A DNA stretch of 64,000 bases from Escherichia phage OLB145. Shown here in pieces: positions 27,065 to 27,479 of the stretch. The stretch lies in the sequence record MH992123.1; one strand, 5' to 3'. How positions within the stretch are numbered: position 1 is the stretch's first letter; each line of letters starts with the position of its first letter. A program made the translations under genes and the position numbers. The notes below the pieces were generated by a model. It worked only from the letters and a program-made list of their open reading frames with translations, was not told the origin of the DNA and searched no databases.

Positions 27065-27426
27065 CCTAATGTGTGGGATGTAACAGTTAAATCCAGTTGC
27101 CGGAAGTGCAATTCTAGATACGCTGCCAATGTGTGAACGGTAAGGCTGTACAGGACTCGGACTCCCATCCCACCTCCTTATTTGAACCAGGTATGAACGG
27201 CTTACTTAGTATTAACTGCATAGGGGTATGTTAGGGATACATAGGTGGTAAGCAGTTGGTAAGAATCCAACATGGTTCATTCCCTATTAGCAGTAACATA
27301 GTCCTGAGTACGTGTGCTCTAAAGACAATATTGGTGAGACAGTCCAATAGCTGCTAAATTAAATTCGTCCATTCCTCTTGGATGTGTAGCGAGTGAAGGT
27401 AACACTTAAAAATCCATGACCCACAG

Positions 27427-27457
27427 AAGCCTCCGGTTAATCCTGGAGGCTTTTTTA
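27427..27457 (+). terminator. intrinsic terminator closing the tRNA/noncoding region
   Basis: Stem GCCTCC(GG)/(CC)GGAGGC 27429-27436/27442-27450, then TTTTTT. Confidence 0.75.
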
Positions 27458-27479
27458 TTTAATTAAATAAGGAAGCAAG

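What the first reader, a model, noticed from the sequence alone, without database searches (positions are those of the whole stretch)
27065..27460. About 0.4 kb ORF-free structured region downstream of the tRNAs, closed by a strong terminator
No ORF of 60 aa or more on either strand between the tRNA cluster and gene 27480, yet the region has long-range inverted repeats (GTGGGATG 27073-27080 pairing with CATCCCAC 27166-27173; a repeated AATGTGTG motif) and ends at a strong terminator (27427-27457). This is unusual in an otherwise tightly packed genome. It could encode a structured non-coding RNA co-transcribed with the tRNAs, or hold a replication or packaging signal.
Basis: seen in the sequence. 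Interest (0 to 1): 0.6.

Follow-up and report, generated by a model that had tools for sequence, protein, structure and literature searches.

The report
Conserved tRNA-like RNA genes in N4
The "empty" 0.4 kb after phage N4's tRNA genes is a row of four conserved, tRNA-like folded RNA modules, and the first is the same RNA that forms the classic RNase III hairpin in front of phage lambda's N gene and sits unannotated in the tRNA clusters of several unrelated large phages.

Summary
The window is coliphage N4 (99.4% identity). There is no ORF above 38 aa in 27065-27460, the GTGGGATG/CATCCCAC repeat is real, and a strong intrinsic terminator lies at 27425-27459.

The region is not one long structure (fold z = -0.2). 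It is four separately folding modules on the + strand: A 27073-27173, B 27183-27279, C 27287-27357 and D 27368-27406. A-C each pair a tRNA-type acceptor stem with a T-arm-like hairpin but carry one long arm instead of D and anticodon arms. D is two hairpins.

Module A belongs to an RNA family absent from Rfam 15. Members were found at the same position and strand in tRNA arrays of N4-like, rV5-like, T4-like (S16) and Muldoon-like phages, and in the lambda/434 N leader. Covariation is strong: 21 of 24 pairs change on both sides.

Most likely these are co-transcribed with the tRNAs, excised and kept as small stable RNAs, like T4 species 1 and 2. Expression, processing and function were not tested here. 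Small ORFs and a replication or packaging signal are rejected.

Two features are unexplained: an always-palindromic loop in family A, and an anti-Shine-Dalgarno tail on the N4 copy.

The parts
26902..26978 (+). tRNA-Pro(UGG), the last canonical tRNA of the cluster (context)
   Evidence: ARAGORN and the Rfam tRNA model at 71.1 bits.
26981..27064 (+). Structured hairpin module just upstream of the finding: a 13-bp closing stem with two inner hairpins. It starts 2 nt after the CCA of tRNA-Pro.
   Evidence: Fold z = -4.8, with 0 of 200 shuffles as stable. It is 91% identical to phage Pollock, where it follows tRNA-Leu directly.
27073..27173 (+). Module A, a member of the lambda N-leader-like RNA family. 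Helices: P1 27073-80/27166-73; P2 27083-88/27144-49; P3 27093-98/27136-40 (A27095 bulged); P4 27108-09/27122-23 with apical palindrome UCUAGA 27112-17; P5 27153-55/27163-65, abutting P1. Invariant blocks: CGGAAGUGC 27101-09 and GCUGCCAAU 27122-30.
   Evidence: The covariance model R1 gives 96.6 bits, E = 1.6e-22, and this is the only hit in the window. Covariation on 32 sequences: 89% of cells paired and 21 of 24 pairs with double changes. Identity to G7C-like phages is 91-100%.
27171..27180 (+). CACCUCCUUA tail of module A. It is identical to the 3' end of E. coli 16S rRNA (anti-Shine-Dalgarno) and replaces the NCCA tail found in relatives.
   Evidence: Unique on the + strand of the window. 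Relatives end in ACCA, AACCA or CCCA. The identity to 16S rRNA is from my own knowledge. Significance is unknown.
27183..27279 (+). Module B, a tRNA-like RNA. Acceptor UGAACCA 27183-89 / UGGUUCA 27273-79; T arm GUUGG-UAAGAAU-CCAAC 27255-71; one long arm (CUUAC...GUAAG) in place of the D and anticodon arms; no CCA.
   Evidence: Fold. It is 82% identical to Pollock with a compensatory T stem, GCUGG/CCAGC. BaqKoxi and L102 keep the acceptor and T arm but carry an unrelated long arm. ARAGORN and the Rfam tRNA model do not call it.
27287..27357 (+). Module C, a 71-nt tRNA-sized RNA. Closing stem 27287-94/27350-57; middle hairpin 27306-11/27314-19; T-like arm 27329-34/27344-49 with a conserved 9-nt loop UGAGACAGU. 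Conserved single strands AACAUAGUCCU and CUAAAGACAA.
   Evidence: Alignment A2 of 11 distinct Enquatrovirinae sequences: 87.7% of cells paired, 12 of 20 pairs with double changes, T-like arm 100% paired. In G7C-like phages it directly follows tRNA-Ile.
27368..27406 (+). Module D, two small hairpins. D1 is UCCA-loop-UGGA at 27368-82. D2 is AGUG-AAGGUAA-CACU at 27392-27406. Conserved UUAAAAAUCC follows.
   Evidence: D2 is GGAG/CUCC in PBM-3 and BaqKoxi, and D1 is AUUCCC/GGGAAU in G7C-likes. Few independent sequences are available, so support is weaker.
27425..27459 (+). Intrinsic terminator that closes the RNA array. The gp48 ribosome-binding site and ATG follow only about 22 nt later (ATG at 27480).
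   Evidence: Terminator scan, -18.6 kcal/mol, and annotated as a terminator in phage Jura.

Best explanation
The stretch is the non-tRNA tail of phage N4's tRNA operon. It is a head-to-tail series of four independently folding RNA modules, read on the + strand and ended by an intrinsic terminator.

Modules A, B and C each keep the part of a tRNA that processing enzymes recognise. This is an acceptor-type closing helix stacked on a T-arm-like hairpin. The D and anticodon arms are replaced by one long arm, so these RNAs cannot decode.

The inferred mechanism has three steps. First, the array is co-transcribed with tRNA-Asn, Ser, Thr and Pro. Second, it is cut into tRNA-sized pieces by the host tRNA and dsRNA processing machinery: RNase P at the 5' side of the acceptor-like helices, RNase III at the long perfect stems, and 3' trimming. 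Third, the pieces persist as small stable RNAs, like species 1 and species 2 RNA of T4.

Module A belongs to a widespread phage RNA family. Its other members are stand-alone, usually NCCA-tailed genes in the tRNA arrays of N4-like, rV5-like, S16-like and Muldoon-like phages, and the large hairpin between nutL and the N start codon of lambda and 434. From the literature, that hairpin is excised by RNase III.

The internal junction CGGAAGUGC...GCUGCCAAU is invariant across all these contexts, and the P4 apex is always palindromic. I therefore think the excised RNA itself is the functional entity. It would be a tRNA-mimicking small RNA that binds a conserved enterobacterial factor, possibly as a dimer, rather than a mere spacer.

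Shown here: the modules, their conservation, their covariation and their family membership. Inferred: transcription, processing and stability. Speculative: the ligand and the trans-acting role.

The confidence of 0.6 is for the whole statement. By step it is about 0.9 that these are conserved structured RNA modules and that A is a member of the lambda N-leader family, about 0.55 for excision into stable small RNAs by the tRNA and dsRNA processing enzymes, and about 0.25 for a trans-acting, ligand-binding role.
For: Identity and context:
- The window is N4. Four tRNAs lie upstream on the same strand and a terminator lies downstream.
- No sigma-70-type promoter was found on the + strand inside the region.

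Modularity:
- BLAST hits break the region into independently conserved blocks.

Module A:
- Homologues sit 2-4 nt after the CCA of an upstream tRNA or tRNA-like gene, on the tRNA strand. This holds in Schitoviridae, Vequintavirinae, Straboviridae (S16, ABTNLPp2), Muldoonvirus and metagenomic arrays.
- Other homologues lie in the lambda/434 N leader between nutL and the N ATG.
- Covariation: 89.3% of cells paired against 66.7% in shuffles, 177 double-change cells against 54, and score 0.646 against 0.08-0.17 for slid partners.
- The model R1 is specific. It gives 1 hit in the window, 0 full-length hits in 100 bacterial-genome loci that carry the sequence pattern (the only match is a 28-bit partial in L173), and 8 hits in 100 metagenome loci.

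Strand:
- G-U to A-C in the helices is 49:12.

Selection:
- Module A is 91-100% and module C 84% identical to G7C-like phages, while the flanking gp48 and gp49 DNA is 67-77% identical.

Modules B and C:
- Both show compensatory stems.

tRNA-likeness:
- An NCCA tail follows the 8-bp P1 in most family A members, including lambda.
- P1 plus P5 stack to about 11-12 layers.

Not protein-coding:
- No reading frame is open across either family.

Palindromic P4 apex:
- 12 distinct inserts all have a central palindrome, 11 of them 6 nt or longer. No shuffle out of 20000 reaches this.
Against: - No expression, end-mapping or stability data for N4 were available. No N4 transcriptome was found.
- The N4 copy of module A, and modules B and C, lack the CCA tail. 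This weakens the RNase P argument for N4 itself.
- The whole region is not thermodynamically unusual, and module A alone has z = +0.16.
- High identity between genera could partly reflect recent horizontal transfer rather than selection.
- Modules B and D rest on few independent sequences.
- RNase III cleavage of the lambda element is taken from the literature (Steege et al. 1987, cited in PMC5371410) and from memory. It was not tested here.
- No ligand is known.
Confidence: 0.6

Rival explanations
1. Cis-acting processing and regulatory cassette only. The modules exist to give RNase P and RNase III entry sites that separate the tRNAs from each other and from the downstream gp48-gp49 mRNA. They might also tune gp48 translation, as the lambda homologue does for N. 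The excised pieces would be by-products.
For: The lambda member lies in an mRNA leader and is an RNase III site that controls N translation (literature; position confirmed). Long, near-perfect stems lie upstream at 26549-26645 and 26783-26900, with z = -5.7 and -6.0. The gp48 ribosome-binding site starts about 8 nt after the terminator's U-run (ATG 22 nt after it), with no room for a promoter. The anti-SD-like tail 27171-80 could pair with the gp48 ribosome-binding site.
Against: A pure processing signal does not need an invariant internal junction or an always-palindromic apex conserved from lambda to T4-like phages. In most lytic phages the element is flanked by tRNAs on both sides, not by an mRNA.
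Confidence: 0.3
2. Decaying tRNA pseudogenes: relics of a once larger tRNA array with no present function.
For: The modules have acceptor and T-arm remnants without anticodon loops, and B, C and the N4 copy of A have no CCA. tRNA detectors do not call them. G7C-like relatives carry real tRNAs at neighbouring positions.
Against: The modules are more conserved than the neighbouring protein genes. Helices are kept by compensatory changes, not eroded. Family A keeps 19 invariant columns across at least 4 lytic-phage groups and lambdoid prophages found in 789 of 5426 E. coli genomes.
Confidence: 0.07
3. Small protein genes below the ORF cut-off, as annotated in phage AlfredRasser (bas69_0025 on the - strand and bas69_0024 on the + strand).
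For: ORFs of 33-38 aa exist. Two are annotated as hypothetical proteins in one record.
Against: No frame stays open across family A or C. Homologues differ by indels of 1-7 nt. Substitutions are pair-wise compensatory rather than codon-like. The lambda homologue lies upstream of the N start MDAQTRRRERR.
Confidence: 0.02
4. A DNA-level signal: a replication origin, a packaging site or a protein-binding palindrome.
For: The region has inverted repeats. The P4 apex is a perfect DNA palindrome (TCTAGA), which a dimeric DNA-binding protein could in principle read.
Against: The helices use G-U pairs four times more often than A-C, which gives a strand-specific RNA signature. The element always has the orientation and spacing of tRNA genes. 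In lambda it lies in a transcribed leader with no known DNA function.
Confidence: 0.03

Closest known systems
[quoted passage not shown]
   Same: It is homologous to module A. It has the same five helices and the same invariant blocks (CG[G/U]AAGUGC, GCUGCCAAU, CAGGACU..), an 8-bp P1 followed by ACCA, and a palindromic P4 apex. It was used to build R1, and independent lambdoid copies that were not used score 89-99 bits.
   Different: In lambda the element is embedded in an mRNA leader. Its P1 is extended by about 7 more pairs into an RNase III substrate. Its known role is cis-regulation of N translation (literature, not tested here). In N4 it is a free-standing unit in a tRNA operon, with no extended stem and a CCUCCUUA tail instead of ACCA.
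T4 species 1 (rnaC) and species 2 (rnaD) small stable RNAs of the tRNA cluster
   Same: They are non-tRNA, tRNA-sized genes inside a phage tRNA operon, on the tRNA strand. rnaC has a canonical T arm and an acceptor-like end. Their function is still unknown.
   Different: They show no sequence similarity to modules A-D, and R1 finds nothing in the T4 cluster. Accumulation and processing are documented for T4 (literature) but not for N4.
Non-tRNA substrates of bacterial RNase P and tRNA-like domains (tmRNA TLD, 4.5S precursor, P1/P7 C4 and P4 CI RNAs, YrlA)
   Same: An acceptor-type helix stacked on a second helix, often with a 3' RCCA, directs 5' maturation (PMC5499578). Family A has an 8-bp P1, a 3-4 layer P5 and NCCA in most members.
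   Different: There was no match to any of these Rfam families. RNase P cleavage is untested. The N4 copy lacks CCA.
Canonical phage-encoded tRNAs
   Same: Same operon, spacing and strand, with acceptor and T-arm geometry.
   Different: There is no D arm and no 7-nt anticodon loop. Neither ARAGORN nor the Rfam tRNA model calls them. Against R1, tRNA-Thr scores only 10 bits.

Membership tests
Lambda N-leader-like phage RNA (family defined here, model R1; not in Rfam) | Five-helix architecture: P1 closing stem, P2-P3-P4 long arm, and P5 abutting the 3' strand of P1 | tested here: met
   The full-length R1 match at 27073-27177 scores 96.6 bits, E = 1.6e-22. All helices can form in N4.
Lambda N-leader-like phage RNA (family defined here, model R1; not in Rfam) | Invariant junction blocks CGGAAGUGC and GCUGCCAAU, plus CAGGACU..GACUCC | tested here: met
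   They are present at 27101-09, 27122-30 and 27151-65.
Lambda N-leader-like phage RNA (family defined here, model R1; not in Rfam) | Palindromic apex of P4 | tested here: met
   UCUAGA at 27112-17.
Lambda N-leader-like phage RNA (family defined here, model R1; not in Rfam) | NCCA immediately 3' of P1 | tested here: not met
   N4 has CUCC (CACCUCCUUA). S16-type members also lack it. Most others have it. It is therefore a frequent feature, not a universal one.
Lambda N-leader-like phage RNA (family defined here, model R1; not in Rfam) | Excision as a discrete RNA by RNase III or RNase P | not testable with these tools
   This needs Northern blots or RACE in wild-type, rnc and rnpA(ts) hosts.
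Canonical tRNA | Cloverleaf with D arm, 7-nt anticodon loop and T loop UUCRANY; detected by ARAGORN or Rfam RF00005 | tested here: not met
   There are no tRNA calls in 27065-27460 even at E up to 10.
T4-type stable RNAs of tRNA clusters (rnaC, rnaD) | Non-tRNA gene inside a phage tRNA operon, on the same strand | tested here: met
T4-type stable RNAs of tRNA clusters (rnaC, rnaD) | Sequence or structure homology to rnaC or rnaD | tested here: not met
   Only chance matches were found, the best being a shared GGTTCGAATCC T loop upstream of the finding.
T4-type stable RNAs of tRNA clusters (rnaC, rnaD) | Accumulates as a stable processed RNA during infection | not testable with these tools
   No N4 transcriptome was found.
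Intrinsic (Rho-independent) terminator | GC-rich hairpin followed by a U run on the transcribed strand | tested here: met
   12-bp stem, 6 G-C pairs, UUUUUUAUUU, -18.6 kcal/mol.
Any curated Rfam 15 family (riboswitch, ribozyme, sRNA, SRP, tmRNA, RNase P RNA, Y RNA) | Covariance-model match | tested here: not met
   There were only sub-threshold chance hits at the terminator, the best at 19.9 bits against a gathering score of 55. The lambdoid copy also gave no hit.
Small protein-coding gene | A reading frame conserved among homologues | tested here: not met
   Every frame is interrupted in some lineage.

The most novel reading that the evidence does not exclude
Family A, meaning N4 module A and the lambda N-leader hairpin, is a trans-acting tRNA-mimicking small RNA. 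Phages as different as lambda, N4, S16, rV5-like and Muldoon-like viruses would release it from their earliest or most abundant transcripts, by RNase III in lambda and by the tRNA-processing route elsewhere. It would dimerise through its always-palindromic P4 loop and engage a conserved enterobacterial factor, such as a tRNA-processing, translation or defence component. The textbook lambda N leader would then have a second function that has been overlooked. In addition, the tRNA regions of N4-like phages would be mostly ncRNA operons rather than tRNA operons.
Probability: 0.2. Interest if true: 0.85.

Novelty: new variant of a known kind. Interest (0 to 1): 0.62.

Why it matters
Phage tRNA clusters are usually read only for their tRNAs. 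The non-tRNA stable RNAs of T4 have remained without a function for fifty years.

This work shows that about 0.9 kb of the N4 "tRNA region" (26549-27424) is filled with conserved tRNA-like RNAs, and one of them is a cross-family element. It links virulent-phage tRNA arrays with one of the best-studied regulatory leaders in molecular biology, the lambda pL-N leader.

That link gives an experimentally tractable handle. Lambda genetics, rnc and rnpA mutants and N4 deletions can all be used to ask what such RNAs do. A covariance-model-ready alignment is also available to annotate them. They are currently unannotated or mis-annotated as hypothetical proteins in dozens of phage records.

Tried and rejected
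1. One long structured RNA. Whole-region folds are no better than shuffles.
2. A known Rfam family, including ribozymes, SRP, tmRNA, Y RNA and RNase P RNA. There was nothing at E up to 10. I noticed a resemblance of CCGGAAG...GC(A/U)GCCAA to 4.5S RNA domain IV. It has no supporting helix and no Rfam hit, so I treat it as chance.
3. Homology to T4 rnaC or rnaD. None was found.
4. The idea that the phi80 M3 RNA, a classic RNase P substrate, is a family member. M3 is annotated as the oop homologue, and R1 finds nothing in phi80.
5. A second copy of family A among modules B-D or elsewhere in the window. None was found, even with filters off.
6. A host or bacterial origin. The pattern scan of 185,579 genomes gave only chance matches: in the 100 of 120 loci scored with R1 there was no full-length hit, only a 28-bit partial in L173.
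7. Module C outside N4-like phages. Two IMG/VR pattern scans found only 70-74 kb N4-like contigs.
8. Small ORFs. Rejected.
9. CsrA-type GGA sites, and histidine or alanine acceptor identity elements. They are not conserved across the family (inspection).
10. Literature searches for N4 transcriptomes, and for any earlier link between the N leader and tRNA clusters. Nothing relevant was found in the held library. Key older papers are not held.

Full report
**What the window is.**
The 1.35 kb around the finding is 99.4% identical to Escherichia phage N4 (EF056009) and close isolates. The finding lies between tRNA-Pro (26902-26978) and gp48 (27480-27851). gp49 follows, and then the convergent 3506-aa virion RNA polymerase. 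In the N4 reference record the whole 1.5 kb between gp47 and gp48 is unannotated. Other records annotate the four tRNAs, one "tRNA-Undet", a terminator, or two small hypothetical proteins.

**Checking the observation.**
- No ORF in 27065-27460 exceeds 38 aa.
- GTGGGATG (27073-80) and CATCCCAC (27166-73) are present as described.
- AATGTGTG occurs only at 27068 and 27128 in the whole window.
- The terminator scan finds a 12-bp stem at 27425-27454 followed by a U run, predicted at -18.6 kcal/mol.
- Folded as one piece, the region is no more stable than dinucleotide shuffles (z = -0.21 on +, -0.85 on -).
- An Rfam 15 scan at E up to 10 finds only the four tRNAs and sub-threshold noise at the terminator.

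**The region is modular.**
Sensitive BLAST against 50,697 phage records splits it into blocks with different phylogenetic distributions.

| Block | Window coordinates | Where else it is found |
|---|---|---|
| A | about 27074-27172 | N4-like and G7C-like phages, and several unrelated large phages |
| B | 27179-27281 | N4 isolates and phage Pollock |
| C | 27283-27356, extending to 27424 | All Enquatrovirinae |

Each block folds on its own into a closing helix, with a hairpin abutting the 3' strand of that helix. This is the acceptor and T-arm geometry of a tRNA. Against G7C-like genomes, module A is 91-100% identical and module C 84%. The flanking gp48 and gp49 DNA is only 67-77% identical, or 45-75% at the protein level.

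**Module A: distribution.**
Homologues occur in these groups:
- Schitoviridae: N4, G7C-likes and BaqKoxi.
- Vequintavirinae: KaOmega, POP17 and F2M1E.
- Straboviridae, genus Gelderlandvirus: S16 and ABTNLPp2.
- Muldoonvirus: Muldoon and VP8.
- Further IMG/VR and metagenome contigs.

Each homologue lies on the strand of the tRNA genes. Where a called tRNA or tRNA-like end lies directly upstream, it starts 2-4 nt after that ...CCA end.

**Module A: the lambda connection.**
An IMG/VR scan with the two invariant blocks also returned about 60 lambdoid prophages. There the element lies upstream of antitermination gene N. The same sequence occurs in 789 of 5426 complete E. coli genomes and in phages lambda and 434.

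In lambda it occupies 35385-35494. This lies between nutL (35518-35534) and the N start ATGGATGCACAAACACGC at 35360, and corresponds to about +89 to +198 of the pL transcript. This is the large N-leader stem-loop known from the literature as an RNase III processing site that modulates N translation. The source is Steege et al. 1987, cited in PMC5371410. Further detail is from my own knowledge and was not verified here.

**Module A: structure.**
An alignment of 32 distinct sequences (A1) supports five helices.

| Helix | Base pairs | Cells paired | Note |
|---|---|---|---|
| P1 | 8 | 96% | |
| P2 | 6 | 94% | |
| P3 | 5 | 64% | MAFFT misaligns some lineages here |
| P4 | 2 | not informative | Both pairs are invariant |
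| P5 | 3 | 97% | Abuts the 3' strand of P1 |

Overall measures:
- 89.3% of cells form standard pairs, against 66.7 +/- 1.0% in shuffles.
- 21 of 24 pairs show changes on both sides.
- The covariation score is 0.646, against 0.21 for shuffles and 0.08-0.17 for slid partners.

Nineteen columns are invariant. They are concentrated in CGGAAGUGC and GCUGCCAAU at the P3/P4 junction.

**Module A: specificity and strand.**
A covariance model (R1) finds exactly one copy in the window, at 27073-27177 (96.6 bits, E = 1.6e-22). No second copy appears even without filters. It finds nothing in T4, phi80, Pollock or distant N4-like contigs.

R1 rejects 100 bacterial-genome loci that carry the bare sequence pattern; the only match is a 28-bit partial in L173. 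It confirms 8 of 100 metagenome loci, which again lie in tRNA arrays or N leaders. In the helices, G-U pairs outnumber A-C by 49 to 12, so the functional molecule is the + strand RNA. No reading frame is open across the family.

**tRNA-likeness of family A.**
In most members the 8-bp P1 is followed by N-CCA. The tail is ACCA in G7C-likes and lambda, AACCA in Vequintavirinae and CCCA in Muldoon. P5 stacks directly on P1. Together they give about 11-12 layers, the length of the acceptor/T minihelix that RNase P measures. The P5 loop mostly reads N-U-N-N-G-A-N.

These features make an RNase P-type 5' maturation plausible, but this is an inference. The N4 copy deviates. Its tail is CACCUCCUUA (27171-80), which is identical to the 3' end of 16S rRNA. 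It could pair with the gp48 ribosome-binding site AUAAGGAAG about 290 nt downstream. I cannot tell whether this is meaningful.

**An unexplained regularity.**
The 11-13 nt P4 insert between the invariant blocks differs between lineages. Yet it always contains a central perfect palindrome:
- UCUAGA
- AAUCCGGAUU
- AUCGCGCGAU
- AUUGUACAAU
- UGUACA
- GGUACC
- UCGCGA
- CGCG

All 12 distinct inserts carry one, and 11 of them are 6 nt or longer. No shuffle out of 20000 reaches this. A hairpin does not need a self-complementary loop. The pattern therefore suggests RNA-RNA dimerisation or a dimeric ligand. In-silico cofolding favours dimers by 9-16 kcal/mol for the isolated arm, but that is expected for any palindrome and proves nothing.

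**Modules B, C and D.**
- **B (27183-27279).** It has a 7-bp acceptor (UGAACCA/UGGUUCA), a T arm GUUGG-UAAGAAU-CCAAC and one long arm. Pollock has the compensatory T stem GCUGG/CCAGC. BaqKoxi and L102 keep the acceptor and T arm but carry a different, longer arm.
- **C (27287-27357).** It is 71 nt. In 11 distinct sequences 87.7% of cells pair and 12 of 20 pairs change on both sides. The T-like arm is 100% paired, and the inner five closing pairs are all replaced in the ECBP1 lineage, GCAGU/GCUGC to UAGAG/CUCUA. It is confined to N4-like phages. In G7C-likes it follows tRNA-Ile directly.
- **D.** It consists of two hairpins with lineage-specific but complementary stems. This is the weakest evidence of the four.

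**Interpretation.**
The same architecture continues upstream of the finding:
- A 23-bp hairpin at 26549-26645.
- A CCA-ended, one-armed tRNA-like gene at 26716-26782.
- A tRNA-like core inside a 24-bp stem at 26783-26900.
- A hairpin at 26981-27064.

Each of these folds, except the one-armed gene at 26716-26782 (z = -2.4), has z between -4.8 and -6. The N4 "tRNA cluster" is therefore mainly an operon of tRNA-like non-coding RNAs.

The best-supported mechanism is co-transcription with the tRNAs, excision by the host tRNA and dsRNA processing enzymes, and persistence as small stable RNAs. T4 species 1 and 2 RNAs are the closest known kind, although they are not homologous.

The invariant junction and the palindromic apex of family A are preserved in very different genomic contexts. 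For that reason I favour a function of the mature RNA itself over a mere processing signal. A cis role cannot be excluded. It is suggested by the lambda precedent and by the fact that gp48 has no room for its own promoter after the terminator.

The remaining alternatives do not fit the data:
- Pseudogene decay.
- Small ORFs.
- A DNA-level origin or packaging signal (plus the genomic contexts).

**Novelty.**
No Rfam family matches. I found no paper that links the lambda N leader to phage tRNA clusters, although much of the older literature is not in the searchable library. I rate this a new variant of a known kind: non-tRNA stable RNAs of phage tRNA operons, and the lambda N-leader hairpin. The unexpected result is that the two are the same RNA family.

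Noticed in passing
window 26549-26900: The 350-nt gap between tRNA-Thr and tRNA-Pro is also filled with structured modules. These are a 23-bp near-perfect hairpin (26549-26645, z = -5.7), a CCA-ended tRNA-like gene with a canonical T arm but a single extra arm (26716-26782, called tRNA-Undet in some records, 97-100% identical to G7C-like phages), and a tRNA-like core with a GGUUCGAAUCC T loop inside a 24-bp extended stem (26783-26900, z = -6.0).
   Followed up: partly
window 26981-27064; L008 1413-1502: A hairpin module directly after tRNA-Pro is 91% identical to one that follows tRNA-Leu in phage Pollock (subfamily Humphriesvirinae). 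There it is followed at once by the module B homologue, with no module A between them.
   Followed up: partly
window 27171-27180 and 27462-27472: The tail of module A, CACCUCCUUA, equals the anti-Shine-Dalgarno 3' end of 16S rRNA. It is complementary in 8 of 9 positions to the gp48 ribosome-binding region AUAAGGAAG. Relatives carry ACCA at this position instead.
   Followed up: partly
window 27112-27117, and the P4 apex in all family A members: The apical insert of helix P4 is a perfect palindrome in every lineage, although its sequence differs (0 of 20000 shuffles). This suggests dimerisation or a dimeric ligand.
   Followed up: partly
window 27851-28333 (gp49) and 27480-27851 (gp48): gp49 carries a Thoeris anti-defence 2-like domain (PF11195, E = 8e-24). 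gp48 is a Phage_gp49_66 family protein (PF13876). The gp48 ribosome-binding site lies about 8 nt after the terminator's U-run (ATG 22 nt after it), so both genes appear to depend on read-through or on processing of the RNA-array transcript.
   Followed up: no
window 26256-26285: A sigma-70-like promoter candidate lies upstream of tRNA-Asn: TTGTAA, an 18-nt spacer, then TATAAC. It is missed by the scan because of the C at -10 position 6. It follows a bidirectional terminator-like hairpin at 26158-26183. This would make the tRNA and ncRNA array its own transcription unit.
   Followed up: no
L008 (KM236242 Pollock) 1083-1412: The GenBank record annotates the four Pollock tRNAs on the wrong strand. 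ARAGORN places them on the same strand as the downstream structured modules.
   Followed up: yes
L002 (AlfredRasser bas69_0025, bas69_0024); L015 (S16 gp75, I133_gp142); F2M1E-type records; lambda and E. coli RefSeq 133-aa N: Several records annotate hypothetical proteins, or an N-terminally extended N protein, across family A or module C sequence. These calls are probably spurious, since no frame is conserved and lambda N starts at MDAQTRRR.
   Followed up: partly
L007 (KaOmega) 2404-2494; L004 1220-1495 and 1600-1790; L102 3845-4005: Other phages' tRNA arrays hold further unannotated tRNA-sized blocks ending in CCA. One lies directly upstream of the family A copy in KaOmega, and L102 has an rnaC-like unit with a UCCGG-UUCGAAC-CCGG T arm. 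Non-tRNA modules therefore seem common in enterobacterial phage tRNA arrays.
   Followed up: no
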